A DNA stretch of 64,000 nt from Planctomycetota bacterium. Its GTDB lineage: Bacteria > Planctomycetota > Phycisphaerae > WQYP01. Of the stretch, positions 5,032 through 25,493 are shown piece after piece. The notes beneath the pieces are model-generated. The model was given only the letters and a program-made list of their open reading frames with translations, had not been told where the DNA came from and did no database searches. The translations under genes and the position numbers were made by a program. Numbering within the stretch: position 1 is the first letter of the stretch; each line of letters starts with the position of its first letter. The stretch covers positions 5,786 through 69,785 of the forward strand of contig JAJZDN010000006.1 in NCBI GenBank assembly GCA_021805985.1, written 5' to 3'.

Positions 5032-6552
5032 ATGGCCTTATTGAATTCCGATGAACTCCCGCTGGCTCAGGCCATCGCGCAACTGACGTTCTGCAATCCC
5101 TTTGTGCCGGAGCGAAGAGAATTGGAGCGCGCGGTCCTGGGTGATGAATATGTTGCCGCGGATACGTCCTGGAACTTCCCCGCCACCGGGCAGATGGAAC
5201 GCCCGAACGAAACGCGCACACGGGAAAAAGTTGCGGCATTTGTTGCCACGCTCCGCCGCCGGATGACGGGCAAGGCCGCGCCGAGTTTACACGAATGGCG
5301 GCTCTATCAGGATGCCGTGGTGCATTATCTATTTTATGCTCTGGAAGGTGATTTTTATCGCACAGCAACGGACCGAAAAAGTAACGCGACTTATGCTGAT
5401 CTGTACGCCCGTTACCTGGAGATATTCCATGACCTTCTGGAAAAGCCGGCAGCGGGGCGCGCGTGTCACTATCGGGCGGAACATTTATTTGCCTGCTGCT
5501 ATCAAGTCACGCGCGCGTTTCAGGGAATTTACCGTTCCATTATCGGGTTTTCGCCTTGTATGATTGATCTGCGGGCCAAGGTTTGGGAGTCCATTTTCAC
5601 CCATAACATGCGCCTTTACCAACTGGAGCTGTACGACAAAATGGGCGACATCGCCACGCTGATCATCGGACCTTCCGGCACCGGCAAAGAACGCGTGGCG
5701 CAGGCCATTGCACAGGCCCGCTATCTGCCCTTTAATACCGCCACAAAACGTTTTGCCGATGTGCCGGAGAAGTTATTTTCCACCACCGTTCTCTCCGCTT
5801 TATCACCCCATCTCATTGAGTCGGAACTTTTCGGCCACGCCCGCGGGTCATTTACCGGAGCACTGGCCGACCGCAAGGGACGCTTGGAATCATGCCCGCC
5901 GCACGGGTCATTATTTCTTGATGAAATCGGCGACGCCGATGAGCAGATTCAGGTAAAGCTGCTGCGCGTGCTGCAATACCGCGTCTTTGAGCGCGTGGGC
6001 GATAGTGTGCCTCGCACTTTCCGTGGCAAAATTATCGCGGCCACCAACCATGATCTGGCCCACGACATGCATAGCGGCAAATTCCGCCAGGACTTTTATT
6101 TTCGCCTCTGTTCCGATGTCATCGCCACGCCGTCTCTGCGACAGCAATTTACCCAGGCCCCGGAAGATGTGGACAATCTGATCAACTTTATAACGCAGCA
6201 ATTTATCCCCGGCGAACACGACCGCCGGAAGCTCAACGCCGACGTCAAATTATGGATCACCGATCATCCCGGTTATGCGTGGCCGGGAAATTTCCGGGAG
6301 CTTGAACAGTGCGTAAAAAACATTCTAGTGCGGCGCAACTATCAGCCGCCGGAATTATCGCCTGGCGATGACCAATCTCCCGATTTAACCCGGATTCGCA
6401 ACGGCGTAATGACAGAGCAGGAACTGTTGAACTTTTACACCAGACTGGTATACCAAAAAGCCGGCACCTACGAATCCGCCGCGCGGAGCCTCGGCATCGA
6501 CCGCCGAACCGTAAAATCCCGCGTCAGCGGCCTGGGGATTTTCACGAGGTGA
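5032..6552 (+). CDS. sigma-54-dependent transcriptional activator (AAA+ sigma-54 interaction domain plus C-terminal HTH)
   Basis: Walker A GPSGTGKE. ESELFGHARGSFTGA motif (GAFTGA variant GSFTGA). C-terminal Fis-like HTH (SAARSLGIDRRTVKSRV). N-terminal ~200 aa sensory domain not recognisable. RBS GGAG before ATG. Confidence 0.8.
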   Translation: MALLNSDELPLAQAIAQLTFCNPFVPERRELERAVLGDEYVAADTSWNFPATGQMERPNETRTREKVAAFVATLRRRMTGKAAPSLHEWRLYQDAVVHYLFYALEGDFYRTATDRKSNATYADLYARYLEIFHDLLEKPAAGRACHYRAEHLFACCYQVTRAFQGIYRSIIGFSPCMIDLRAKVWESIFTHNMRLYQLELYDKMGDIATLIIGPSGTGKERVAQAIAQARYLPFNTATKRFADVPEKLFSTTVLSALSPHLIESELFGHARGSFTGALADRKGRLESCPPHGSLFLDEIGDADEQIQVKLLRVLQYRVFERVGDSVPRTFRGKIIAATNHDLAHDMHSGKFRQDFYFRLCSDVIATPSLRQQFTQAPEDVDNLINFITQQFIPGEHDRRKLNADVKLWITDHPGYAWPGNFRELEQCVKNILVRRNYQPPELSPGDDQSPDLTRIRNGVMTEQELLNFYTRLVYQKAGTYESAARSLGIDRRTVKSRVSGLGIFTR

Positions 6553-10090: not shown

Positions 10091-10562
10091 TGCGCCGCCC
10101 GTTAGCCCCCGAAAAGCTCAAGCTAGCCCGACGCGGAAGCGTCACGGTTGGATGCGGAACAGCGGCACAGAAATGGCCGCGCTGCAACGCGACACGTAAT
10201 ACCCAATCCACCTCTGGTCCATTCTGACGCGCAGTGCCGATCTCGCCGGCGGCTGCAATGTTGTGTGGTTGTGTCATATTCCGCTTCAAAACTCACCGCT
10301 ACCGCATTGAGCTAACCCAAGCTTCGCACTTCGGCACTAAAAAAGGCTCTGGCGCTCAACCAGGGGCAAAAGTCTGTACCATAGCCTCATGCGAAACCCA
10401 GGGGTTTGGTACCTCGCTGGACGATGCCAAGGCCGCGATCCTGGCTTTTTTTAGGCTTGATTAGCAACTCATTAATCTCCAGCCATCAGAGCGGAGTAGA
10501 CCAATGGGGCCAAAAAGGCATTCTTGGCGATAAACACATGGCCGCCGGGCCGCAGGGGGGAA

Positions 10563-11925: not shown

Positions 11926-13962
11926 TCATCGTGAACCAGACGCGATGCGCTTCAAAAATTCTTCTTCATCTATCACTTCCACGCCGAGTTTGCGGGCTTT
12001 TTCCAGCTTACTGCCCGCATCTTCCCCCGCGACTACAAGTGTTGTATTTTTGCTCACGCTTTCGCCGGCTTTTCCGCCCAGGGATTCAATAAGGGCCTTG
12101 ATTTCATGCCGGGCGTAATGCTGGAGTTTACCGGTTACCACCACCGTTTTTCCGCTCAGCGGACCGCTGGCCTGTCGCACGCGGGCCGGCGTGGCCTTTA
12201 CGCCTACCGATTCCAGCTCGCGCAGTAACTCCAGTCCACCAAGTTCATGGAGGAAGCGGTGCAAACTTTGCGCGACCACTTCTCCCACGCCTTCTACAGC
12301 CTGGAAATCAGCGACCGACGCTTTGGCTAAGCAATCCACAGAAGGGAAATTTTCCGCAATATCTTCCGCCGTGCGCACGCCCACATGCAAAATTCCCAAT
12401 CCCCCCAGCAGGCGTTCCAGCCCGCGGCTTTTGCTTTCGGCGATCGCCGCAATAAGAGTGGCCGCCGATTTTTCACCCATGCGGTCCAAACCCGCAACAT
12501 CCTGCAGAGTCACACGGTATAAGTCCGGCAGATTCTTTACCAAGCCCCTGGCTAAAAGCTGCTGCACCACCGCCGGTCCCAGATTTTCAATATCCATCTG
12601 GTCCCGGGCGCCAAAAAACAGCAACCGCTCTTCGCGTTGCGCGGGGCAGGCCAGATTCGGGCAGCGAACAAATCCCCCATCACGCACCGCTGAGGATCCA
12701 CAGGAGGGGCAAAGTGTCGGCGGGGCAATGACCTGCGCATCGGCGGGGCGTTTGGCGGCAACTACTCCGACCACATAAGGAATTACTTCGCCGGCTTTCT
12801 GCACAATCACGCGGTCATGCAGGTGGATATCCTTACGGACAATTTCATCAAAATTATGCAAACTGGCGCGGTAGACTTGCGTACCGCTGATAAACACCGG
12901 CGGCTCAAATTCCGCCACCGGGGTGATTGTCCCAGTTTTGCCCACCTGGAACACTACGCGCGCTAATTGCGTTTCCGCTTGCTCCGGCTGATATTTAAAA
13001 GCAATGCACCAGCGCGGGGCACGGGATGTGGTGCCTAGCTGCTGGCGCTGTGCCAACACATTCACTTTTACAACCACACCGTCCGTGTCATAGGGGAGAT
13101 CTTTCCGTTGGTCATTAAAGCGATGAATAAATTGGAGAGCCGCGTCAATATCCTCCGCGGGGGCAATATGCTCCGATATTGGAAAGCCCAGCAATTTCAG
13201 ATAGGTCAGCCATTGTTGATACGTGGAAAATTCAAAGCCTTCCACGACGCCCTGCCCGTGGGGCAGGAAACGCAGCTTTCGTGCCGCTACCGTGCGCGGG
13301 TCCAAAAGCTTCAGCGTGCCGGCGGCGGTATTTCGCGGATTGGCATAGGCTTCTTCCCCCATGGCCTCCTGTCGCTGGTTGATGGTTAAGAATTGCATGC
13401 GGGTTAAATAAGTTTCACCCCGGACTTCCAGCACGGGTGGAATGTGTTTTGGAAAATCCCCGCCCGGCGGATTTTTCGGATCAGAAAGCCGGAGGGGAAT
13501 ATCATAAATGGTCCGGGCATTTTGCGTGACATCATCGCCATTTTCACCATCGCCGCGGGTGGCGGCCTGCGTGAGAAAGCCCTTTTCATAACGCAAGGAA
13601 AGCGATACGCCATCAATCTTTGGCTCACAGATATAACTAAACGCCTGTCCCTCCAGCAGTTTCCGCACACGCTGATCAAATTCGCGGACTTCGCCTTCGC
13701 TGTACGTATTATCAATGGAAATCATGGGTATACCATGATGAACCGCAGCGAAAGCCCGCAGGGGGCTGCCGCCCACACGCTGCGTCGGGGAATCAGGTGT
13801 TATAAGGTCCGGATGCGCCTGTTCCAGATCGTTAAGCTTGTGCATCAGCGCATCATAGGCCTGATCGGAAATCTCCGGCTTGGCGTGCTGATAATAAAGT
13901 TCATCATGCCGCCGAATCTCATCCCGCAGCAAATCCAGTTCATGTTCCACACTTTTGCCCAT
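11926..13962 (-). CDS. ligA: NAD-dependent DNA ligase LigA
   Basis: KIDGVSLSL adenylation motif (KxDG), OB fold, Zn-finger cysteines (CPSCGS...CPNLAC), HhH region and C-terminal BRCT. Start trimmed to MGKSVEHELD. Confidence 0.9.
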   Translation of the reverse strand: MGKSVEHELDLLRDEIRRHDELYYQHAKPEISDQAYDALMHKLNDLEQAHPDLITPDSPTQRVGGSPLRAFAAVHHGIPMISIDNTYSEGEVREFDQRVRKLLEGQAFSYICEPKIDGVSLSLRYEKGFLTQAATRGDGENGDDVTQNARTIYDIPLRLSDPKNPPGGDFPKHIPPVLEVRGETYLTRMQFLTINQRQEAMGEEAYANPRNTAAGTLKLLDPRTVAARKLRFLPHGQGVVEGFEFSTYQQWLTYLKLLGFPISEHIAPAEDIDAALQFIHRFNDQRKDLPYDTDGVVVKVNVLAQRQQLGTTSRAPRWCIAFKYQPEQAETQLARVVFQVGKTGTITPVAEFEPPVFISGTQVYRASLHNFDEIVRKDIHLHDRVIVQKAGEVIPYVVGVVAAKRPADAQVIAPPTLCPSCGSSAVRDGGFVRCPNLACPAQREERLLFFGARDQMDIENLGPAVVQQLLARGLVKNLPDLYRVTLQDVAGLDRMGEKSAATLIAAIAESKSRGLERLLGGLGILHVGVRTAEDIAENFPSVDCLAKASVADFQAVEGVGEVVAQSLHRFLHELGGLELLRELESVGVKATPARVRQASGPLSGKTVVVTGKLQHYARHEIKALIESLGGKAGESVSKNTTLVVAGEDAGSKLEKARKLGVEVIDEEEFLKRIASGSR

Positions 13963-13985
13963 GCTGAAAGTTATACCTCGGAAAA

Positions 13986-14942
13986 CTAATGCGGATTCTT
14001 GAATGTCGGAAGATGTTCTCCAATATGGCCAATGAGGATTTTCTCGTCGCCATCGCACCATTCAAAATATATTCGGCCAGCACCGGGGGTGAATCTCACG
14101 TGCCAACTGAAACACCGGGTCATCCCGTCTGGACACATAAAGGTATGCTCGTCACGATAGCGGGTCAGCGTCACTTGGCTCTCTGGGGTTATCTTAGAGG
14201 GGGGCTGTTGCAGCCAGAGGTCCCGTTGTCGCCCGGAAAACTCTTCGCACCATGAATTGAGATCCTCGAGCCGCTTAATGATCTGCCTGATTTCATCCCC
14301 ATTCCATGAGAACTGGGATAACATCTCCCGCACACGCTCGCAAAATAGAAGTCGAGGAAATTTCCGCTGGCGGTTTGTCCAAAGTTCATCGTGGTCGGCA
14401 AAAGTTTCCTTTGTCTTGGCTTTAATCCACTTCTTATGCTCGGCGGCATGCTCAAGTTTAGACACGTGTTTAAGGCGCTCTTGACTCTGCAATAAAGCCG
14501 CGTCCTCGCCAAGTTCGCTTACATCCACGCAGAGGGACGAGCAATCCCACTCCGGGGCGGATAGGAAACTGACGACGATCCCGTCGTTAAGATACGCTTC
14601 CAGCATCCCCAAGGCAGGTCTTGAGCAGTGAAGTACCTCGCATCCAAGCGCCCGGTCTCCATGTAAACCATCACCGAGGAATGGTACTTTCGTGGTAAGC
14701 GACCTAAATAATTGCTTTAACTCTCGGTCAACACTCAGATTCTCGCACCAGTGGCCTACCCGGAAGTTTGGCGAAATTTCGACATTAAAGAATCCGGTGG
14801 GAATATGTAGCGCCACTGGGCTGGCAGCCTTTTGTATGCCGACCATCGCCCTTGCGAAGGTTTCCAATCGTTCCCGCGCGAGGCCATGGCTTGGTGCCAT
14901 CGACTGTAGCGAGAGTTCGTTAAAGAAGCACTCCAGGCTCAC
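13986..14942 (-). CDS. hypothetical protein, third gene of the DUF262-ATPase operon; C-terminus resembles a RelE/HigB (Gp49)-type toxin motif
   Basis: Start overlaps the stop of the ATPase gene (14939-14942). C-terminal ...GAGRIYFEWCDGDEKILIGHIGEHLP resembles the conserved C-terminal strand-loop of RelE/ParE/HigB-superfamily toxins. No other family recognised. Confidence 0.5.
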   Translation of the reverse strand: MSLECFFNELSLQSMAPSHGLARERLETFARAMVGIQKAASPVALHIPTGFFNVEISPNFRVGHWCENLSVDRELKQLFRSLTTKVPFLGDGLHGDRALGCEVLHCSRPALGMLEAYLNDGIVVSFLSAPEWDCSSLCVDVSELGEDAALLQSQERLKHVSKLEHAAEHKKWIKAKTKETFADHDELWTNRQRKFPRLLFCERVREMLSQFSWNGDEIRQIIKRLEDLNSWCEEFSGRQRDLWLQQPPSKITPESQVTLTRYRDEHTFMCPDGMTRCFSWHVRFTPGAGRIYFEWCDGDEKILIGHIGEHLPTFKNPH

Positions 14943-16078
14943 GGCTCGTTCTCCCGCGGGAGAATCAGTTCTCCAAGGGCCTTGTCAAGCTCATCAAAGA
15001 AGCCTGCGGGCCAGTTGTCAATCCGACCGTCCGCGCTGATTTTCGGGGAAATTATAGAGGTTTGGGCCTCCGTCCCCTCCGCGTGACTGCCGAAGTAATG
15101 GATTGCGACATCTTGGGGTGCCAGTATCTCGTTTCGTACAGCCAAACGAACTGCGTTCAAGACATGATCACTGTGGCTTTCCATAAGTATTTGTAAGCCG
15201 GAGGCGGCCGCTCTGCATATTAATTCCGCTATTTTTGACTGCCCGCGCGGGTGAAGGTGGGCCTCGGGGTTCTCCACCAATAAAAGCCCGCCGCGCCTGG
15301 AGCTTAAAAGCGCCACCACAATCGGCAGGGTATACGTGATTCCGAATCCGACATTGGTGGTCCGGTAGGGGCGGCTGACGTCCCCCATGCGAGCGAAGGA
15401 GTATTTCAGCGAAACGGTATCAGTGGCCTCCTGGGCGACGCATGAAATCCGGAGGCCCGGTGCAACCTCCTGCATCCAAGCCTCCACTTGTTCCTTCAGG
15501 GTTGTTGCGTCTCCCTGGGTACTGCGTGGATGCCACATTTTGGGGACGCCCTGCAGTTTCTCTGATCCGAACTTCATAAGAAAATCGGAAGCGTAGCGCC
15601 CATCATTTCCCAGTTGGCGTTTCAGGTGCACCAAGTGCTCGGATGTGTCATAGGCCGTTCGTGGGCCTACCCGTTCCGCCTGGAGATAACAAAAGTCACT
15701 GCCAAAAATATTGGCGTTTTGAATCGACGCCCAGTTCGGACCCGCAGCAAGCTGCATCACATCCTCGTTGCGATTGTATGCAAACCTCCATCTCGCAATG
15801 CCCCCTAGTGACTGGGTGATTTCAATTTCAACAAAATCCTCATCCGCATTTTCATACAGTACGTCAATACCCCGCCCCGCCCGTAACAATTCGCCATCCA
15901 GCAACAGGCCCCCGCCGCGCAGCAGTCCTTGGTCGTACGACTGTCTAAGCAGCAGCAACGATTGAATCACTGAGCTTTTTCCCGTGCCATTTGCGCCGGT
16001 GAGTAACGTCAGGGGCGCAAGTCGCAGGGAAGCCTCCCTGAAGCATTTAAAATTATGCAGCCTCAATTTTTCGAGCAT
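14939..16078 (-). CDS. AAA_21/ABC-type ATPase with DUF3696-like C-terminal region (OLD/AbiL/Septu-like ATPase class)
   Basis: Walker A LLTGANGTGKSS near the N-terminus. Walker B/D-loop LLLVENPEAHLHP and a downstream H-loop. About 380 aa. Overlaps the upstream DUF262 gene by 16 nt. Confidence 0.8.
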   Translation of the reverse strand: MLEKLRLHNFKCFREASLRLAPLTLLTGANGTGKSSVIQSLLLLRQSYDQGLLRGGGLLLDGELLRAGRGIDVLYENADEDFVEIEITQSLGGIARWRFAYNRNEDVMQLAAGPNWASIQNANIFGSDFCYLQAERVGPRTAYDTSEHLVHLKRQLGNDGRYASDFLMKFGSEKLQGVPKMWHPRSTQGDATTLKEQVEAWMQEVAPGLRISCVAQEATDTVSLKYSFARMGDVSRPYRTTNVGFGITYTLPIVVALLSSRRGGLLLVENPEAHLHPRGQSKIAELICRAAASGLQILMESHSDHVLNAVRLAVRNEILAPQDVAIHYFGSHAEGTEAQTSIISPKISADGRIDNWPAGFFDELDKALGELILPRENEP

Positions 16079-17340
16079 TGCAATACACTTTCCACAAGTT
16101 CTTGAACAGCTGAAAATCGTAGTCTTACTTTTCCAACATCTCCCGTGCCTTGAGAAATTGCATTCAGAAAAGCTTGGCTCCTCAGCAATTCTTCCACCTT
16201 GCCCAGCAGCAATTCCTTCCGGGACTTCAACGCGTCGATTTGTTCATCGCTAAGCCGATCGAGATTCACTGACCACGTTTCGAATAGGGCCTTGTTTATG
16301 GGCATAAGCCGATTCTCTTTGCCAGCCTTACGAAAGGCCTTCTTCCCCAACAAATCACTACAAGCTTTCATAGCTCGTTTGAACCGCAAAGAGAGCTCGC
16401 TTAGTTGATGGTCACCCATCTTGTTTAATTCTTGCATTTTCTGGTTAAGAAAGGCATCAAAATCTCTGCTCTCATAATCGGTGTAAGGGGTTGTCGCAAA
16501 CGCGATAAACCGCAGCACAAACTCGCGGTCCGCCATGCGCGCTCCCGGCACCGCCTCGGACGTAGCCACTTTGAACTCCTGGGCTTGGGCCAGGTCCTTC
16601 AGAAGAGTGGTACTTTTTCCCTGGTTAAGAGCGTGGCGTATTTCCTGCGCGGAAAGCGGAAGCCCACCCGTATTGATACGTTTGAATATATTGAACTTAA
16701 CCTCGGGCGGAGTGCCCTTCTCGATCAAATATGCAGTCACCTGAGTTTCAAGAATGCGCCTTTGTAAATGGCGGGGCAAACTGTCAAAACCCTTTGACTC
16801 CTGCTCCCCCAGGAACTCCATGCCACTTAGCTTGAGGGTTTTTTCCAAAACAAACCTCTTGAGGGAGGTGAGCCGCTGCAATCCGTCCACGACAAGCCAC
16901 TTGTCCTCGTCAGTGGCGTCCATGTAGAAAGCGGGCAGGGGAATGCGTATCAGTAATGATTCTATCAGCCTGCTTTGCGCCTTCTCGCTCCATAGTCCTC
17001 CTTGCCGCTGAAAATCCGGGGCTAAATCAATTTCCTTGTGCTTAATGCGGTTCAAAAGCAGGTCAATGGTGATCGGTTTTGTCTCGACGCGTATTACAGT
17101 TGGATCAAACGGATTATTAATGACGTCCGATCCCGTGGTGTCTTCTAGCTCCACGCCTGCTTCGGTGCCCTCTTCAACTTCCGTGATAGTCTCTGTCTGC
17201 AAAGCCATAGATAGCTCGCTCCAATTAAAGTTCCCGGTACAGCATAACACAAAATTTGCCGGGGTGGATATCAGGTCAACAACCCGGTGTTGGCGGTCCT
17301 TGTCTGTAGGAGTCTTTTCTGATTCACTGGTAAAGCCCAC
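16063..17340 (-). CDS. DUF262 (GmrSD N-terminal, ParB-like DGQQR) domain protein
   Basis: PDFQR...W...LIESLLIRIPLP followed by VVDGLQRLTSL (DGQQR-type motif) are DUF262 hallmarks. No C-terminal DUF1524/HNH recognisable. Confidence 0.8.
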   Translation of the reverse strand: MGFTSESEKTPTDKDRQHRVVDLISTPANFVLCCTGNFNWSELSMALQTETITEVEEGTEAGVELEDTTGSDVINNPFDPTVIRVETKPITIDLLLNRIKHKEIDLAPDFQRQGGLWSEKAQSRLIESLLIRIPLPAFYMDATDEDKWLVVDGLQRLTSLKRFVLEKTLKLSGMEFLGEQESKGFDSLPRHLQRRILETQVTAYLIEKGTPPEVKFNIFKRINTGGLPLSAQEIRHALNQGKSTTLLKDLAQAQEFKVATSEAVPGARMADREFVLRFIAFATTPYTDYESRDFDAFLNQKMQELNKMGDHQLSELSLRFKRAMKACSDLLGKKAFRKAGKENRLMPINKALFETWSVNLDRLSDEQIDALKSRKELLLGKVEELLRSQAFLNAISQGTGDVGKVRLRFSAVQELVESVLQCSKN

Positions 17341-17360
17341 CTCGAACTGATGAAGCTATT

Positions 17361-18635
17361 TTAGTTCCGGACGCCGCCAGGTATGGCTACGGGGGCAACT
17401 CCCGGAAACGGGCCGCGAACGGGTGGCCGTACTGCGGGTGCAGCGGCACCGGCTTGAATTGGCGGTGTCGGAATCACACCGCGTTGTTTCCAGAATTTTA
17501 ACATCGCCTTGATGGTTGTTTCTTCCTGCACCTGTGTGTTAAACAGCCAACTACCGCCATACAGGGCGGATTTGAAAAGATGATAATGCTGCGGCTTATG
17601 GCCGGAGAGCAGCACCAGCAGATACAGTGGAATGGTGCGATTATCCCAATGTACACTTTGGCCATTAAATACAAAATTGATCTGATTGGCCTGGGGGCGG
17701 CAAATTAAATTAAGCAGGTAGGGTGCCGCCAGCAGGGGTTTATATTGTGCAAACAGTTTAATAAAATTGCGGCCCTGTAACATGCTGGGATTCTGAAGAA
17801 TATCATTGGCTCCGGATTGCCGCGCCATTTTTTCTGTATAGTTCACCAACATGGATTTCAAGTGACGGGGGTGCCAGTGCTGCAATAATTGGGCCGCATA
17901 TTGCCCATCCTGTGCCTGCTGCCAGTAATTGACAAAGTGCATAATGTAAATCTTCTGGCCATTAAACCGCACGACCTGCCGCGTGGTGGCACCACTGTAC
18001 ATGGTCGTATTGCCCACGGATCGGTGGAAGACAATCTGCACCATTTTCTCGGATGGCTTGCGGTTCCACAGAGCGGCCATGGTTGAAAGATACACCACAC
18101 GCCGGCGGTCACGCAGCAGACGATCCAATATCCAGTCGCTGCTGCTGCCCGGAATTTTTACCAAACCCTGGGCCGATGACGCACGGATGTCCGCGCGCCG
18201 CGCAAAGGCTGCTCCCACCAGCGGCAGCACACCAGGTTTAATGCCCCAGTCAAACATGGCCATGCGTTTTTCCTGGGGCAATTTGATCACCGCCATGGTC
18301 CAGCGGTCCAGATTAATGTTAAAATTCAGCAGTTTAATCAATCGTGTTGCCTGTTCCGGGCCACCCGCATTGATGATGGCGTGCAACTGCAGGCCCAGAG
18401 CGGTTTGAATAATTTTGTTGGCATGTTGGCGCACGCTGTACCGTTCAGAGGATAAATCTTTTAACCCCTGGGCCAACATGGCGGAAACTTTGTCAGATAT
18501 TGCCGGAGAAGCTGCCGGGTCGGGGCTCTTGGCGTGCAGGCAGGAGGAACCACCCAATGGAATTATCACAGCGGTTACCATCACGGCAACTGCGGCTAAA
18601 TTCTTAAACAGAGATTGTTGGTTCGTGAGGGTCAT
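17361..18635 (-). CDS. hypothetical lipoprotein/secreted protein with proline-rich C-terminus
   Basis: N-terminal signal/lipobox-like segment (AVIIPLGGSSC). C-terminal PPV/GAP-rich tail. Confidence 0.45.
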   Translation of the reverse strand: MTLTNQQSLFKNLAAVAVMVTAVIIPLGGSSCLHAKSPDPAASPAISDKVSAMLAQGLKDLSSERYSVRQHANKIIQTALGLQLHAIINAGGPEQATRLIKLLNFNINLDRWTMAVIKLPQEKRMAMFDWGIKPGVLPLVGAAFARRADIRASSAQGLVKIPGSSSDWILDRLLRDRRRVVYLSTMAALWNRKPSEKMVQIVFHRSVGNTTMYSGATTRQVVRFNGQKIYIMHFVNYWQQAQDGQYAAQLLQHWHPRHLKSMLVNYTEKMARQSGANDILQNPSMLQGRNFIKLFAQYKPLLAAPYLLNLICRPQANQINFVFNGQSVHWDNRTIPLYLLVLLSGHKPQHYHLFKSALYGGSWLFNTQVQEETTIKAMLKFWKQRGVIPTPPIQAGAAAPAVRPPVRGPFPGVAPVAIPGGVRN

Positions 18636-18762: not shown

Positions 18763-20067
18763 TTAGGCCTGCAAGCGTGACCCAAGGGCATCAAGCACGC
18801 TCATATAATTCATGTATGCGTCATAAGGCGATTCATACATGCTGAAGCTCGGCGTATTTAAGTCGCCGAAAAATCGGGTGTTCATATACAGGAAGTGATC
18901 GCTGGAACCCAATTTTCGCCACGTGTTTAATAACGCCGCATCCGCAGAGTCTTTAACTGGCTGTTCCAGACGATACAACTCCTGCAGCGCGTTGGCCTGC
19001 ATGGCGTTGCCCAACCAAGGAGATAAATCCCGCTGGGCATCGGTCCAGCAGATATTCCGCGGCACGCTTAATTCCGCCACTGGCTCGTATTGCTTAATAA
19101 CTTCCGAAGGCGTACTGAAGCGGTCCCCATTTTCCAGTACGAATCGGGGTAGTGCCCGCAGGAATTCAAATATGCCGCTGGCCGCAGAATGCCGTTCGCC
19201 AAAGGTTTCGTAGTCCATTCCCAGCAGGCAGTATTCCCCCTCCGCGCCTGTGCCATGAAGCCAGCGGGCGTATTTATCCGCCATCAGTGGCCAGTTAATC
19301 CAATCGTGGGCGGAAAAGCGCAGCGATAAATCATCACTTAGCCGATAATGCCGCAGTAAGACTTTCAGTTGCTCACGCGCCGCTTTATACACATGTCCCG
19401 CGCTGCGATTTCCCAAGGCTCCCTCCCATCCCTCAGTAATAGCCGCCTGGAAGTTTAATCCTGCTGCCAGACGCCCTACCTCATTGGAGTAAATCAAATT
19501 GGTATTCCGGAATATGGTGGGCTTTTGTCCAAAATAGTGTTCGATCGTTCGGCTGTGCAAATTGACTTGGGAGGCGAATTCATCCGGGGAATAAAGACAC
19601 GCCAAGCTATGGTGCGATGTTTCCCCGAGAAATTCCACGCAACCGGTTTTAGCAAGCTCCTTCAATAACGCCACCACCTCCGGCGCGTCGTCCGCAAATT
19701 GTTCCAGAGCCGTATTAGTTACGCCCAGTGCCACGCGGAAAGCCGATCCGTATTGCCGCGCCAAATCCAGTAACACATGGGTGGCGGGAATATAACTGTG
19801 GCGGGCAATTTCCCGCGTGTAGCGCCGATTGGCCTGGGTGTCAAAATAATCCGAATCGGAATCAAAAATACTGTAGCGCCGCAGGCGGAAGGGCTGATGA
19901 ATCTGAAAATATAAAACCACAGCAACCATCGGGCGTGTCCTGTTCTGACGCACTTCTGCGTCATGATTATAACCATACGGGGCGAAATACGGCAGGAGGT
20001 CCCGTCCTGTCTGTGCCGTCCTGTCCATGCTGTAAGGCGTTAAACGGCGCGGAGTCCCATTTACCAA
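18763..20067 (-). CDS. glycoside hydrolase family 57 protein (alpha-glucan-active)
   Basis: N-terminal ...VVLYFQIHQPFRL... (GH57 HQP motif) and overall GH57-like composition. The true start is probably a downstream Met (MVAVV...). Confidence 0.65.
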   Translation of the reverse strand: MVNGTPRRLTPYSMDRTAQTGRDLLPYFAPYGYNHDAEVRQNRTRPMVAVVLYFQIHQPFRLRRYSIFDSDSDYFDTQANRRYTREIARHSYIPATHVLLDLARQYGSAFRVALGVTNTALEQFADDAPEVVALLKELAKTGCVEFLGETSHHSLACLYSPDEFASQVNLHSRTIEHYFGQKPTIFRNTNLIYSNEVGRLAAGLNFQAAITEGWEGALGNRSAGHVYKAAREQLKVLLRHYRLSDDLSLRFSAHDWINWPLMADKYARWLHGTGAEGEYCLLGMDYETFGERHSAASGIFEFLRALPRFVLENGDRFSTPSEVIKQYEPVAELSVPRNICWTDAQRDLSPWLGNAMQANALQELYRLEQPVKDSADAALLNTWRKLGSSDHFLYMNTRFFGDLNTPSFSMYESPYDAYMNYMSVLDALGSRLQA

Positions 20068-23009
20068 TCCAGCGTTTTACGCCATGCTTGCCGGAAATGC
20101 TCAACCGGTGCGTTGATGATTGTTTTGCCATTGATGGATTGCACCAGCAGGTCCGGTTTCTGCGTCACCCGGCCCAGAATACCAAAGGCCAGTGTTCGTA
20201 ACCGCCGCAACACGTCATCAAGATGTTCGGGTTTAACCTCCAGCACGTAGCGCGTGGGAGATTCGGAAAATAAGAGAATATCATCGCGATCCACTTCCGG
20301 ATCATGCGGAACGCCGGTCAGATCAATCTCGGCACCTAATCGGCCGGCAAAAAGCATCTCCGCCAAAGCCACGGCCAATCCTCCTTCCGACGGATCATGC
20401 GCACTGGCAACCAGTCCCTCAGAGATTAATTTGGCAACTCGTTGATGCACCCCGGGTGCGGTCGCCAGATCCACCGCCGGAATGCTGCGGCCGTTCTGCT
20501 GATGCAGCGCGTAATACCATGATCCCCCCATGTGCCGATGGGTCTGACCTACCAGCAGTAAATAATTTCCTGCCGCCTTGGCATCCATGGTTATGCAGCG
20601 CGAAACGTCAGGCACAATGCTGATGGCGCTGATCAGCAAGGTGTAAGGGATGCAAATACGTTTGCCTTCATCGGTGATAAATTCATTGGACAGAGAATCT
20701 TTGCCGGAAATAAAGGGCGTGCCGAACGCCATCGCCCCGTCATAACACGCCTGACACGCCCGCACCAGAGCACCTAAGTGCATGCGGTCGGAACATTTCG
20801 GCCAGCAGAAATTATCCAGTAATGCTGTGGTTTCCGGATCGCCGCCAACGCAGACAATATTGCGGATCGCTTCATCCATGCCGCTTAAGGTCATCTGATA
20901 CGGATCCAGATCACCGAGTCGTGGTTGACACCCATTGGCCAAGGCCACACCACGGTTGCTTTCGGGAACGGGAGCCAGCACCGCCGCATCTCCGGGGCCG
21001 TCCCCACCGGGGCCGATCAGCGGTTTAATGATGGTTGATCCCTGCACTTCATGATCGTATTGCCGGATAATCCAGTGTTTGCTGGCCAGTGTAGGCATGG
21101 CCAGGAGTTGGCATAATGTTTGGGCATAATCTGCAGGCTCCGCTACGGTGGCCTTGGGCAACACCGGCTCCTGCCATACTGCCTGGCGAATCGGGCAGGG
21201 CAGGCCGTCATGGATAAATTCCATGTCCATGGAGCCGACACTTTGCCCCTGATACCGCAGCGTCAGTTTGCCTGATCCATCAAATACGCCAATGTCCGTG
21301 GCTTCCACATCCTCCGCGGCTGCCAATTCCAGAAGCCGGGCAACATTTTCCGGCGCGACGGATACGACAATTCTTTCCTGAGCCTCGCTGATCCAGATTT
21401 CCGCATAGTTCAAACCGGCGTATTTCAGCGGCACTTTGTCCAATTCCACCGTGGCACCGGTATGGGATCCCATCTCCCCGATGGCACTGGATAACCCGCC
21501 GGCACCGCAGTCGGTAATGGCGTTATACAGCGGCCCGCAATCCCGCGCCTGGAGAATCACATCCATCATCTTTTTTTCAGTAATGGCATTGCCGATCTGT
21601 ACGGCGTGGCTGAATTCATCGCCATGTTTGTCGGTTATTACGTCGCTGGAAAATGTGGCGCCATGGATGCCGTCACGCCCGGTGCGGCCGCCGATGAGAA
21701 TAATCCGATCCCCTGCCTGGGCGTCCCTTTTTTCCGCCAGATGCCGCGGCAATAATCCCACCGACCCGCAGAACACCAGTGGATTGCCGATGTACCGCTG
21801 ATCAAAATAAACCGCGCCATTAACCGTCGGTATGCCCATGCGGTTGCCGTAATCCCGTACCCCGGCTACCACTCTTTGAGCGATGCGCCGCGGGTGCAGA
21901 ACGCCCACCGGCACCTGTTGCGCCGGCGTGGAGGGATCCGCAAAGCAAAATATATCGGTGCTGGCAATCGGTTTGGCTCCGCCGCCGGTGGCAATGACAT
22001 CGCGTATGCACCCGCCGATGCCGGTAGCGGCCCCGCCGTAGGGTTCAATAGCGGACGGGCGGTTGTGCGTTTCGACTTTCATGCACAAAGCCCATTTGTC
22101 ATCCAGCGCAATAACCCCGGCATTGTCCTTAAATACGCTTAACGTCCAGGGCTTATTAAGTTCCTTGGTAGCCCGGAAAATCGTGGACTTCACGAGATTA
22201 TCAATGGTCTGCATCTGATCGCCGGCGGTGTGATGTTCATGGACATCATCTTCATTTAACCCTGCAGGGTGATGAGAAAAATGGATTTTGGCTTTCAGGG
22301 TTTTATGAACGCAATGTTCGCTCCAGGTTTGCGCCAGCGTTTCAAGCTCCGCATCGGTTGGTTCGCGGTCCAGATGGCGGAAGTGTTCCTGAATGGCTTT
22401 CATTTCCGCCAGGTCCAGAAACAGATGGCCACGTCTGGACAACTGCTGAAGCTGGTCATCGGTCAGGTGGCGAATAGGCACTTCCAGCCGCTTGAATTCA
22501 TAGGCCTTGCCGCGCGGAAATTCGCTGGGCGTAAAAGCCGTTTCGTGAACTTGCTCTATGGAATCATTGGCCAGAAGTCGCCGGGCGATTTGGCTGGAAG
22601 TTTCCGCCGTCAGATGGCCCGAAAGCACATACCGCCGCCCTGTGCGCACCTGAATGGCCGATGGTTGCCGAGGCAGATTCAGCAAATCCGCGATGGCCAT
22701 TTCCGTGCTGCCGGCGACCGGATCCATGACTCCGGGCTTCAAGTGTACTTCCACCAGCCGACCCGCGCCGACGGTTTCATGCCCCACCACGACGCGCTCA
22801 GTCACCGGGTCGGCTAATAATTCTGTGGCTATTTTATGGACTTGCGAATGCAGCAGAATATCCGCTGCACCCTGCAGCAAAAATACGCGCGCCGTTTGTA
22901 CACCATGGACCTCAGCAATACCGAGTTGCTGAATTTCATGGAGGACCGCAGCGCCCGCTGGATCGTCGGCGGAATTTTGAGGATGAATTTCAACGCGATA
23001 AACAGCCAT
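20061..23009 (-). CDS. purL: phosphoribosylformylglycinamidine synthase subunit PurL with two fused N-terminal PurS-like domains
   Basis: PurM-like duplicated AIRS domains and the ATP-binding Gly-rich region. N-terminal MAVYRVEIHPQNSADDPAGAAVLHEIQQLGIAEVHGVQTARVF and a second copy (RLVEVHLKPGVMDPVAGS...) match the PurS pattern. Start trimmed to MAVYR with AGGAG RBS. Confidence 0.85.
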   Translation of the reverse strand: MAVYRVEIHPQNSADDPAGAAVLHEIQQLGIAEVHGVQTARVFLLQGAADILLHSQVHKIATELLADPVTERVVVGHETVGAGRLVEVHLKPGVMDPVAGSTEMAIADLLNLPRQPSAIQVRTGRRYVLSGHLTAETSSQIARRLLANDSIEQVHETAFTPSEFPRGKAYEFKRLEVPIRHLTDDQLQQLSRRGHLFLDLAEMKAIQEHFRHLDREPTDAELETLAQTWSEHCVHKTLKAKIHFSHHPAGLNEDDVHEHHTAGDQMQTIDNLVKSTIFRATKELNKPWTLSVFKDNAGVIALDDKWALCMKVETHNRPSAIEPYGGAATGIGGCIRDVIATGGGAKPIASTDIFCFADPSTPAQQVPVGVLHPRRIAQRVVAGVRDYGNRMGIPTVNGAVYFDQRYIGNPLVFCGSVGLLPRHLAEKRDAQAGDRIILIGGRTGRDGIHGATFSSDVITDKHGDEFSHAVQIGNAITEKKMMDVILQARDCGPLYNAITDCGAGGLSSAIGEMGSHTGATVELDKVPLKYAGLNYAEIWISEAQERIVVSVAPENVARLLELAAAEDVEATDIGVFDGSGKLTLRYQGQSVGSMDMEFIHDGLPCPIRQAVWQEPVLPKATVAEPADYAQTLCQLLAMPTLASKHWIIRQYDHEVQGSTIIKPLIGPGGDGPGDAAVLAPVPESNRGVALANGCQPRLGDLDPYQMTLSGMDEAIRNIVCVGGDPETTALLDNFCWPKCSDRMHLGALVRACQACYDGAMAFGTPFISGKDSLSNEFITDEGKRICIPYTLLISAISIVPDVSRCITMDAKAAGNYLLLVGQTHRHMGGSWYYALHQQNGRSIPAVDLATAPGVHQRVAKLISEGLVASAHDPSEGGLAVALAEMLFAGRLGAEIDLTGVPHDPEVDRDDILLFSESPTRYVLEVKPEHLDDVLRRLRTLAFGILGRVTQKPDLLVQSINGKTIINAPVEHFRQAWRKTLDW

Positions 23010-24500: not shown

Positions 24501-25493
24501 ATGACGTTGGCTGCACCGAAACAGGTAGAAATGGGTAAGCAAAGAGCTTCGGCCGACGGGCCTCTCCAGCGGGAAAATGTGGCCAACGCCTTGTTTGAGG
24601 GCGATTGCCTGTCATTACTGGAACGTTTCCCATCGCATTGCGTTGATTTGATCCTATGTGATTTGCCCTATGGCACAACACAGAATCCGTGGGATAGCCC
24701 TATTAGTCTCACGGATCTATGGGCGGCGTATCGACGGATTCTCAAGCCCTCCGGCACGGTTGTACTAACGGCACAAGGCCTGTTCACCGCGCGTCTGATG
24801 GTCTCAAACGAAAAGTGGTTCCGTTACAAACTGGTTTGGGAAAAATCGAAGCCGACAAATTTCCTCAACGCCAGACGCCAGCCTTTGCGAAAACATGAAG
24901 ATATATGTGTTTTCTCACCCAGGCAGGCGGCCTATTTTCCTCAGATGGGGTTGGGCGTCCCGTATGACAAAGGCGTGCGAAAGAATCAGCTCTCCGGCTC
25001 ATACGGAGATTTTCTCCCCGCGCGCGTCCGCAGCGAAGGGCAGAGATTTCCCACGGACGTAATTTACTTCAAGACCGCTGAAAGTGAGGGGCAGGTTTGG
25101 CATCCCACGCAAAAGCCCGTGGCGCTGGGACAGTATCTGGTCCGCACGTACTCGCGACCGGGAGAACTCGTGCTGGATAACGCGTTCGGCAGCGGGAGCT
25201 TTCTTGTCGCCGCCCTGTTGGACGGGCGGCGATTCTGCGGCATTGAGCAGAACGATGAGGCGCAGCTTTTTAAGAAAGCCCACATCGACTACATCACGCT
25301 GGCTGCGCAGCGCCTTGGCCAGGCGTGGAGTTGCCTAAGCGAGGCGGTTCAACTGGAAATCAGCGCGATTCAGATATACCGCAAGGGTGAAAGTCCGTGC
25401 ACGGAGAAGTTCAGTGGCCAGAGCAAAGATTACCTTAAACGAGCGATCGTGGGCGATCGAATTAATCACCGCGATCAACTCCTATTCGGCTAA
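24501..25493 (+). CDS. DNA methyltransferase, beta class (N6-adenine or N4-cytosine)
   Basis: Motif IV LILCDLPYG (DPPY-type) precedes motif I AFGSGSF. HPTQKP motif. RBS AGGAG before ATG. Confidence 0.85.
   Translation: MTLAAPKQVEMGKQRASADGPLQRENVANALFEGDCLSLLERFPSHCVDLILCDLPYGTTQNPWDSPISLTDLWAAYRRILKPSGTVVLTAQGLFTARLMVSNEKWFRYKLVWEKSKPTNFLNARRQPLRKHEDICVFSPRQAAYFPQMGLGVPYDKGVRKNQLSGSYGDFLPARVRSEGQRFPTDVIYFKTAESEGQVWHPTQKPVALGQYLVRTYSRPGELVLDNAFGSGSFLVAALLDGRRFCGIEQNDEAQLFKKAHIDYITLAAQRLGQAWSCLSEAVQLEISAIQIYRKGESPCTEKFSGQSKDYLKRAIVGDRINHRDQLLFG

What the first reader, a model, noticed from the sequence alone, without database searches (positions are those of the whole stretch)
13986..17340. 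Three-gene coupled operon: DUF262 (DGQQR) + AAA_21/DUF3696 ATPase + 318-aa partner, a candidate uncharacterised anti-phage system
Three minus-strand genes have overlapping stops and starts (16063-16078 and 14939-14942), implying a single translationally coupled unit. Gene 1 is a DUF262-only protein (ParB-like NTP-binding module known from GmrSD/BrxU/SspE modified-DNA sensors) with no HNH/DUF1524 effector domain. Gene 2 is a ~380-aa ABC-type ATPase of the class used by OLD, AbiL, PARIS AriA, Septu PtuA and Gabija GajA (Walker A near the N-terminus, ENPEAHLHP). Gene 3 has no recognisable nuclease fold and ends in a RelE/HigB-like motif. This DUF262 + DUF3696-ATPase + third-protein combination does not match any named system I know, whose ATPase partners are HNH, Toprim or DUF4435. 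The operon sits in a run of defence-flavoured genes (HEPN-motif protein, ParB-like gene, R-M cassette within 10 kb).
Basis: partly seen in the sequence, partly recalled or inferred. Interest (0 to 1): 0.8.

Follow-up and report, generated by a model that had tools for sequence, protein, structure and literature searches.

The report
Menshen (NsnABC) anti-phage operon
The three coupled genes are real, but they are an ordinary copy of the already named Menshen (NsnA-NsnB-NsnC) anti-phage system, sitting in a planctomycete genome at a spot just upstream of the DNA ligase gene where relatives carry other defence cassettes.

Summary
Three overlapping minus-strand genes encode a DUF262-only protein, an ABC ATPase with a DUF3696 tail, and a 318-aa protein with a RelE-like C-terminus. 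One correction: gene 1 most likely starts at ATG 17208 (381 aa), not GTG 17340.

The claim that the trio matches no named system does not hold. All three proteins match the PADLOC profiles NsnA, NsnB and NsnC over their full length (E 1.9e-141, 1.7e-112, 1.3e-78). These define Menshen, found by Millman et al. 2022 and dissected in Li et al. 2025 (PMC12065111).

The system is not housekeeping. The 3.4-kb cassette is absent from relatives on both flanks. The same site upstream of ligA holds DarT-DarG in one relative and a PIN-domain gene in a more distant one.

Mechanism (inferred): NsnA senses phage DNA, NsnB transduces the signal through ATP, and NsnC cleaves RNA.

Novelty: already known. Interest: low.

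The parts
16063..17208 (-). nsnA: 381-aa ParB-DUF262 plus C-terminal helical (ParBDB-like) domain protein, the predicted sensor. The longest ORF extends to GTG 17340, but ATG 17208 is the likely start.
   Evidence: PADLOC NsnA 1.9e-141, covering profile positions 14-384 of 385. Pfam GmrSD_N 1e-22 is the only domain. Motifs QRQGGLW (67), DGLQR (108) and FKRIN (175) are invariant in 37 homologues. AF2 model pLDDT 85.6; the only significant Foldseek PDB hit is BrxU/GmrSD (7p9k, E 4e-4). Gene calls of 381 aa on other contigs.
14939..16078 (-). nsnB: 379-aa ABC-type ATPase with a C-terminal DUF3696 helix, the predicted transducer. Its ATG overlaps the end of nsnA by 16 nt.
   Evidence: PADLOC NsnB 1.7e-112, full length. 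Pfam AAA_15 6e-22, AAA_21 3.5e-20 and DUF3696 1e-14. Walker A GANGTGKS (28), Walker B with E-N instead of D-E (LLLVEN, 265), GFG (244) and SHS (301), matching the NsnB peculiarities listed in PMC12065111.
13986..14942 (-). nsnC: 318-aa effector with an N-terminal Rossmann/PIN-like domain, a helical linker and a C-terminal BECR (RelE/YoeB-like) domain. Its GTG start overlaps the nsnB stop (GTGA).
17209..17360 (-). 152-nt non-coding leader between the stop of the upstream 424-aa gene and the nsnA ATG. It presumably holds the operon promoter and the RBS (GGAG).
   Evidence: Sequence. The GGAGC-N9/10-ATG is conserved in four Menshen loci (alignment A3). No consensus promoter was called here.
13978..17372 (.). 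Extent of the lineage-specific 3.4-kb cassette (GC 0.52, against 0.547 for the whole window).
   Evidence: Nucleotide homology to relatives stops at window 13977 on the ligA side (L024, L026). It stops at 17373-17403 on the side of the 424-aa gene (L006-L008). GC values.
11926..13962 (-). Flank: ligA (NAD-dependent DNA ligase, 678 aa). Its ATG lies 23 nt after the nsnC stop. A conserved GGTATAAC element lies between them.
   Evidence: Pfam domains on the identical gene in L001. Alignment A2.
17361..18635 (-). Flank: 424-aa lineage-specific protein of unknown function, followed by GH57 and purL. This block is conserved in relatives that lack the cassette.

Best explanation
The locus is a complete Type I Menshen anti-phage system (nsnA-nsnB-nsnC) in an uncultured Phycisphaerae (Planctomycetota) genome. 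It was acquired as a 3.4-kb cassette at a variable site immediately upstream of ligA.

Likely mechanism, inferred from the published domain analysis and from related systems:
1. NsnA uses its ParB-type DUF262 NTPase domain and its helical DNA-binding domain to recognise phage DNA, possibly modified DNA.
2. NsnB, an ABC ATPase expected to form a tetramer, holds NsnC through its DUF3696 tails and couples the NsnA signal to ATP binding or hydrolysis.
3. NsnC is then activated or released, and its RelE/YoeB-like BECR domain cleaves RNA. This stops phage replication, probably at the cost of host translation (abortive infection).

Shown here: the identity of the three families, their folds and motifs, the gene coupling, the conserved triad in distant bacteria, and the patchy hotspot distribution. 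Inferred: the order of signalling, the trigger, the RNA target and the abortive outcome.
For: - All three proteins give full-length, very strong matches to PADLOC NsnA, NsnB and NsnC.
- The Pfam architecture is DUF262-only plus AAA_15/AAA_21/DUF3696 plus an unannotated third protein. This is exactly how Li et al. 2025 define Menshen.
- NsnB has the Menshen-specific motif variants (E-N Walker B, GxG signature).
- The NsnA model's best PDB match is BrxU/GmrSD, followed by ParB-fold proteins and SspE.
- NsnC homologues at 28-46% identity, from loci with unrelated flanks (one from Kitasatospora), always follow DUF262 and DUF3696-ATPase genes. NsnA homologues are on 60 plasmids and 4 Vibrio phages.
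- Among the closest homologous loci, NsnC diverges fastest: NsnA, NsnB and NsnC are 74, 72 and 46% identical to L015. This is the reported polymorphism pattern.
- The cassette is absent from relatives on both flanks. DarT-DarG occupies the same site in L024.
- Anti-phage activity of a Menshen system, and its loss on DUF262 mutation, are reported in the literature.
Against: - No experiment exists on this locus or on any planctomycete Menshen.
- The mechanism of Menshen has not been solved in the papers I could search. The NsnB-NsnC complex and the sensor-transducer-effector order are AlphaFold-based proposals.
- AlphaFold 3 did not predict any NsnA contact with NsnB or NsnC.
- The catalytic residues of the BECR domain are inferred from conservation only. 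Profile-sequence comparison with E. coli YoeB, RelE and YafQ was not significant.
- I could not assign the inPIN or PB-BECR subfamily number, because the paper's supplement is not held.
Confidence: 0.9

Rival explanations
1. It is a split GmrSD/BrxU-like type IV restriction system. NsnA recognises modified phage DNA, and the partners supply a DNA-cutting activity in place of the missing DUF1524 domain. Defence would then be by direct degradation of phage DNA rather than by RNA cleavage.
For: NsnA's only Pfam domain is GmrSD_N. Its best structural match is BrxU. The validated Menshen protects against T2, T4 and T6, which carry glucosyl-hydroxymethylcytosine. Other Menshen NsnC variants carry Toprim or PLD nuclease domains.
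Against: This NsnC has a RelE/YoeB/YafQ-type fold. The experimentally studied relatives of that fold named in the Menshen paper (Gp49, YoeB, Ntox21) are RNases. No DUF1524, HNH, Toprim or PD-(D/E)xK domain is found in any of the three proteins.
Confidence: 0.12
2. It is a member of another DUF262- or ABC-ATPase-based defence family (PD-T4-2, HEC-03, PDC-M55, PARIS, Septu or Gabija) rather than Menshen.
For: Secondary PADLOC hits: PD-T4-2_A 7.5e-40 for NsnA; HEC-03B 9e-37, PDC-M55A 1e-27 and AriA 1.6e-24 for NsnB. PDB sequence hits for NsnB are to the OLD and PtuA ATPases.
Against: The Nsn profiles score 70-100 orders of magnitude better and cover the full length of all three proteins. The third protein matches only NsnC profiles, apart from two marginal HEC-07 hits (E about 0.005). 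No Toprim (AriB, GajA, OLD) or HNH (PtuB) partner is present.
Confidence: 0.03
3. It is a non-defence module: a chromosomal ParB/SMC-like DNA-handling operon, or a selfish toxin-antitoxin-like addiction cassette with no role against phage. It would be retained because it sits in front of essential ligA.
For: The immediate neighbours are housekeeping genes (ligA, GH57, purL). Only 23 nt and no terminator-like hairpin separate nsnC from ligA. The NsnC C-domain has a TA-toxin fold.
Against: The distribution is patchy. The cassette is absent from all 9 relatives found through the 424-aa gene and from all 80 loci found through ligA. It is replaced by DarTG at the same site. Homologues occur on plasmids and phages. 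The family has experimentally shown anti-phage activity.
Confidence: 0.04

Closest known systems
Menshen (NsnA-NsnB-NsnC), Type I; reference system from Solibacillus silvestris StLB046 (Millman et al. 2022; Li et al. 2025, PMC12065111)
   Same: Same three families in the same order, with overlapping genes. NsnA is ParB-DUF262 plus a helical C-domain, with only a disordered N-terminal tail and no extra sensor domain, which makes it Type I. NsnB is an ABC ATPase with an E-N Walker B, a GxG signature and a DUF3696 tail. NsnC is a PIN-like N-domain plus a BECR RNase-like C-domain.
   Different: The host phylum is Planctomycetota, which is listed but rare in the published survey. The NsnC subfamily could not be matched to the paper's inPIN and PB-BECR numbering. 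The only invariant histidine in the C-domain is H281, flanked by R283 and R290, whereas the reference is described as having an H-R-H triad. No experimental data exist for this copy.
GmrSD / BrxU / SspE (DUF262-DUF1524 single-chain enzymes)
   Same: The DUF262 NTPase with QR..W, DGxQR and FxxxN motifs, and the following helical domain. BrxU is the best PDB match of the NsnA model.
   Different: There is no DUF1524/HNH nuclease domain. The effector is a separate protein with an RNase-type fold and is linked through an ABC ATPase.
PARIS (AriA-AriB), Septu (PtuA-PtuB), Gabija (GajA) and OLD: ABC-ATPase-controlled nucleases
   Same: NsnB belongs to the same AAA_15/AAA_21 ABC ATPase class. The published models predict the same logic of an ATPase oligomer holding one effector per dimer.
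   Different: The partner is not Toprim or HNH. A third, DUF262 sensor protein is present. The DUF3696 tail is the predicted docking element.
RelE/YoeB/YafQ/HigB type II toxins (BECR fold)
   Different: No sequence similarity is detectable. The domain is fused behind a 245-residue N-terminal region. There is no small antitoxin gene. Control is presumably by NsnB rather than by an antitoxin.
PD-T4-2 and Dazbog (other DUF262 systems without DUF1524)
   Same: They contain a DUF262 protein without a fused nuclease. PD-T4-2_A matches NsnA at 7.5e-40.
   Different: The score is much weaker than for NsnA. They have different partner genes and no DUF3696 ATPase plus NsnC pair.

Membership tests
Menshen | NsnA: a ParB-DUF262 domain with motifs I (QRxxxW), II (DGxQR) and III (FxxxN) | tested here: met
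   Pfam GmrSD_N 1e-22. QRQGGLW (one residue longer than the published pattern), DGLQR and FKRIN are all invariant in 37 homologues.
Menshen | NsnA: a C-terminal helical ParBDB domain and no DUF1524/HNH domain | tested here: met
   The PADLOC NsnA profile is matched over positions 14-384 of 385. The AF2 model is all-helical over residues 187-377. Foldseek gives BrxU at E 4e-4 and SspE only as a non-significant rank-4 match (E 0.49). There is no other Pfam domain. Foldseek TM-scores are low, so the domain-level match is qualitative.
Menshen | NsnB: an ABC ATPase (AAA_15/OLD-ABC type) with a C-terminal DUF3696 helix, an E-N Walker B and a GxG signature | tested here: met
   Pfam AAA_15, AAA_21 and DUF3696. 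PADLOC NsnB 1.7e-112. Motifs at residues 28, 244, 265 and 301, compared with the description.
Menshen | NsnC: a C-terminal nuclease/toxin effector domain (BECR in most systems) | tested here: met
Menshen | NsnC: an N-terminal inactive PIN-like (inPIN) domain | tested here: inconclusive
Menshen | Gene order nsnA-nsnB-nsnC, adjacent on one strand | tested here: met
   Overlaps of 16 nt and 4 nt. The same order is seen wherever the upstream genes could be read: L015, L017, L019, L020, L104 and L105.
Menshen | Protects against phage; protection needs the DUF262 gene | not testable with these tools
   Reported for the Solibacillus system only.
Menshen | NsnB tetramer binding NsnC through DUF3696 (predicted NsnB4-NsnC2) | not testable with these tools
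   Only monomer prediction is available here. The published AF3 models are described.
GmrSD/BrxU type IV restriction enzymes | DUF262 fused to a DUF1524 HNH-type nuclease in one chain | tested here: not met
   No DUF1524 in NsnA or elsewhere in the operon.
PARIS / Septu / Gabija / OLD | An ABC ATPase paired or fused with a Toprim (AriB, GajA, OLD) or HNH (PtuB) nuclease | tested here: not met
   No Toprim or HNH hit in any of the three proteins. The only matches are ATPase-domain hits (AriA 1.6e-24; PtuA and GajA weaker).
Type II RelE/YoeB toxin-antitoxin | A small stand-alone toxin with an adjacent small antitoxin gene | tested here: not met
   The BECR domain is the C-terminal ~70 residues of a 318-aa protein. 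There is no small ORF partner in the cassette.

The most novel reading that the evidence does not exclude
The few bases just 5' of the conserved GGTATAAC leader of ligA may be a lineage-specific defence hotspot in Phycisphaerae. Unrelated cassettes sit at this site: Menshen in this genome and in L015, DarT-DarG in L024, and a PIN-domain (toxin-like) gene in L025. No recognisable recombinase, tRNA or flanking repeat accompanies them.

The Menshen operon has no terminator before ligA. It may therefore be co-transcribed with this essential gene, which would tie ligase expression to the defence operon or stabilise the cassette.
Probability: 0.25. Interest if true: 0.3.

Novelty: already known. Interest (0 to 1): 0.12.

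Why it matters
As a discovery it matters little. Standard defence-finder pipelines would label this locus Menshen, and the NsnC family is large.

It has modest value as a clean, apparently intact Menshen copy from Planctomycetota, a phylum that is rare in the published survey. It also illustrates a defence hotspot where cargo is swapped next to an essential gene.

The molecular mechanism of Menshen is still unsolved experimentally. Any well-behaved orthologue could therefore help biochemical work, but nothing here singles this copy out.

Tried and rejected
- NCBIfam gave no hit for NsnA or NsnC, and only generic sub-threshold ATPase hits for NsnB.
- PDB sequence searches found nothing for NsnA and only chance-level apolipoprotein hits for the NsnC profile. 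For NsnB they found only short P-loop and signature stretches of the OLD and PtuA ATPases. No Menshen structure appears to be deposited.
- hhalign of the NsnC C-domain profile against E. coli YoeB, RelE and YafQ was not significant.
- I looked for marks of mobility around the cassette. There is no tRNA nearby, no bounding direct or inverted repeats above chance and no integrase.
- Promoter and terminator consensus scans were uninformative. The 9 promoter-like sites match chance. Terminator-like sites (19, against 8.9 ± 3.4 in shuffles) were somewhat above chance, but none lies in the nsnA leader or between nsnC and ligA.
- GC content of the cassette (0.52) is only slightly below the window mean (0.547).
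- My first NsnA query was one base out of frame. I corrected it, and the conclusions are unchanged. The tblastx scan also covers this point.
- The Millman bioRxiv preprint contains neither 'Menshen' nor 'DUF262'. The experimental claims are therefore cited through PMC12065111 and PMC10952713.
- The supplement of Li et al. is not held, so I could not assign inPIN or PB-BECR subfamily numbers.
- One 2026 BECR preprint that mentions Menshen could not be opened.
- I looked for strains of the same species that lack the cassette, using exact-protein look-ups. Every contig that extends past the 424-aa gene also carries Menshen.
Full report
**1. Observation**

Three minus-strand ORFs lie at 16063-17340, 14939-16078 and 13986-14942. 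Reading the minus strand gives these details:
- The nsnB ATG lies 16 nt inside the end of the first gene.
- The third gene starts with a GTG that overlaps the nsnB stop (GTGA).
- The third gene ends at a TAG (13986-13988), only 23 nt before the ATG of ligA (13962).

The first gene most likely starts at ATG 17208, giving 381 aa. Three lines support this. GGAG lies 10 nt upstream of that ATG. The family profile starts matching at residue 54 of the long ORF, at profile position 14. Independent gene calls on metagenome contigs with identical DNA give 381 aa. The residues up to about position 30 of the 381-aa protein are predicted to be disordered.

**2. Identity**

Pfam results:
- Protein 1 hits only GmrSD_N/DUF262.
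- Protein 2 hits AAA_15, AAA_21 and DUF3696.
- Protein 3 hits nothing.

Against PADLOC-DB, all three match the NsnA, NsnB and NsnC models over their full length, at E 1.9e-141, 1.7e-112 and 1.3e-78. The next-best families are PD-T4-2_A, HEC-03B, PDC-M55A and AriA. They score 70-100 orders of magnitude worse.

NsnABC is the Menshen system. It was named by Millman et al. 2022 and shown to protect against T2, T4, T6 and phage Fado. Protection is lost when the DUF262 gene is mutated. Li et al. 2025 (PMC12065111) analysed 1,997 loci and defined its parts:
- NsnA is ParB-DUF262 plus a helical 'ParBDB' domain. Type I systems have no extra N-terminal sensor domain.
- NsnB is an ABC ATPase plus a DUF3696 helix. 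Its Walker B reads E-N instead of D-E, and its signature motif is GxG.
- NsnC is an inactive PIN-like N-domain plus a polymorphic C-terminal effector, most often a BECR RNase domain.

**3. Tests of those features here**

*NsnA.* QRQGGLW (67), DGLQR (108) and FKRIN (175) are invariant across 37 homologues. The AlphaFold model (pLDDT 85.6) has an α/β N-domain followed by an all-helical C-domain. Its only significant PDB match is BrxU/GmrSD. ParB-fold proteins and SspE follow at non-significant E-values.

*NsnB.* The motifs are GANGTGKS (28), GFG (244), LLLVEN (265) and SHS (301), with DUF3696 at residues 320-371.

The conclusion that there is 'no recognisable nuclease fold' was not.

**4. Family size and neighbourhood**

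NsnA-like proteins are very abundant. At least 7,479 have E below 1e-10, and hundreds are about 60% identical. A word-indexed search with NsnC found only 33 relatives, the closest outside its own cluster at 47% identity. An exhaustive profile search, however, found 2,635 cluster representatives, 952 of them below 1e-30, nearly all about 310 aa long. This NsnC type is therefore common.

I looked up six NsnC homologues at 28-47% identity, including one from Kitasatospora. Each is the third gene after a DUF262 gene and a DUF3696-ATPase gene, and the flanks are unrelated between loci.

Among the closest homologous loci, identity to L015 is 74% for NsnA, 72% for NsnB and 46% for NsnC. Within NsnC the C-domain is the most conserved part. 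This fits the published polymorphism. NsnA homologues also occur on 60 plasmids, 32 of them conjugative, and on 4 Vibrio phages.

**5. Genomic context**

The organism is an uncultured Phycisphaerae/Planctomycetota lineage. The immediate flanks are housekeeping or lineage-core genes: ligA downstream, and a 424-aa protein, GH57 and purL upstream.

Nine relatives share purL-GH57-424aa at 41-91% identity to the 424-aa protein (73-91% in the eight closest). None has nsnABC or ligA after it. Eighty loci found through ligA, including L024 at 85% LigA identity, also lack Nsn genes. Nucleotide homology to relatives ends at window 13977 on one side and at 17373-17403 on the other. This delimits a 3.4-kb cassette.

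A more distant Menshen copy (L015) also sits directly upstream of ligA. In L024 the interval between the same upstream gene (a RAMA/GIY-YIG protein) and ligA holds DarT-DarG instead, at PADLOC E 3e-60 and 5e-135, with Pfam DarT and Macro domains. L025 has a PIN-domain gene there.

All ligA leaders share GGTATAAC about 12 nt before the ATG. In both Menshen loci the cassette ends 8-10 nt upstream of this element.

The site therefore behaves as a defence/TA hotspot. I found no tRNA, integrase or bounding repeat.

A type II methyltransferase and a type IIG restriction-modification enzyme lie 7-11 kb away, beyond purL. A strain variant of the same species (L001) carries a CBASS operon a few kb on the other side.

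**6. Mechanism**

The following is inferred from PMC12065111 and from related systems; none of it was shown for this locus.
- NsnA senses phage DNA through its DUF262 NTPase and helical DNA-binding domain.
- An NsnB tetramer clamps the NsnC N-domain between pairs of DUF3696 tails, as PARIS and Septu ATPases hold their nucleases.
- It converts the signal into ATP-dependent activation or release of NsnC.
- The BECR domain of NsnC then cleaves RNA.

How NsnA communicates with NsnB is unknown, because AlphaFold 3 did not predict a contact. A 2025 preprint reports higher-order Menshen complexes by mass photometry, without a stoichiometry. I found no solved Menshen structure in the PDB searches.

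**7. Verdict**

The finding is a correct observation of an already named system. It is a Type I Menshen operon, apparently intact, in a planctomycete. Every contig recovered through an exact NsnC look-up also carries an identical NsnB. Novelty: already known. Interest is low. The only mildly new aspect is the hotspot upstream of ligA and the possible read-through into ligA.

Noticed in passing
L024:5890-7609 (metagenome contig Ga0209012_1000494): In a close relative (LigA 85% identical), the exact site occupied by Menshen holds a DarT-DarG pair instead. The site lies between a RAMA/GIY-YIG gene and ligA. PADLOC gives DarT 3e-60 and DarG 5e-135, and Pfam finds DarT and Macro domains. L015 has Menshen at this same site.
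   Followed up: yes
window 13963-13985; alignment A2: A GGTATAAC element about 12 nt upstream of the ligA ATG is invariant in five lineages, with or without an inserted cassette. The nsnC stop lies 8-10 nt upstream of it. It could be the ligA -10 box, or part of the target of the hotspot.
   Followed up: partly
window 24501-28161: A type II N4/N6 DNA methyltransferase (330 aa, PADLOC MTase_II 4.7e-55) overlaps the start of a 924-aa type IIG restriction-methyltransferase (8.6e-231). This is an R-M cassette on the far side of purL.
   Followed up: partly
L001:14759-17970 (ENA ERZ27237200 k141_397688): A strain variant with identical Menshen, ligA and MIP genes carries a CBASS-type operon just beyond the MIP gene, where the window has unrelated genes. 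The operon comprises SMODS cyclase, bacterial HORMA, an AAA ATPase and a DUF6602 protein. The break corresponds to roughly window 10100-10560, so this is a second variable junction.
   Followed up: no
window 10124-10157; L006:11428-11461; L007:11230-11263: A 34-nt sequence (AGCTAGCCCGACGCGGAAGCGTCACGGTTGGATG) occurs once in the window, near the variable junction by the MIP gene. It recurs at 88-91% identity right after the 424-aa gene in two relatives that lack Menshen. It may be a junction or recombination footprint; this is unexplained.
   Followed up: partly
It has no Pfam or PADLOC match, so the HEPN assignment is unsupported.
   Followed up: partly
L025:7126-7545: A more distant relative (LigA 66%) has a PIN-domain (VapC-like) gene directly upstream of ligA. 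This is a third kind of toxin or defence cargo at this position.
   Followed up: partly
window 5032-6552: A sigma-54 activator-type AAA protein matches the PADLOC RtcR_PspF2 model (1.8e-57) only over the shared AAA domain. This is probably a generic enhancer-binding protein rather than a defence regulator.
   Followed up: no
window 28555-31452: A 965-aa secreted protein is built of long, near-identical Gly/Asn/Ser-rich repeats. It has a C-terminal hydrophobic segment plus RRR, resembling a PEP-CTERM-like sorting signal. This is read from the translation only.
   Followed up: no
L008:10646-12043 and L011:15238-16203, 19417-20499: In relatives, the region after the 424-aa gene differs completely from the window. 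By eye it includes a possible phage capsid-like ORF (L008), and an ImmA/IrrE-like peptidase and an AAA ATPase (L011). These were not checked with profiles. This suggests that this side is also a variable region.
   Followed up: no
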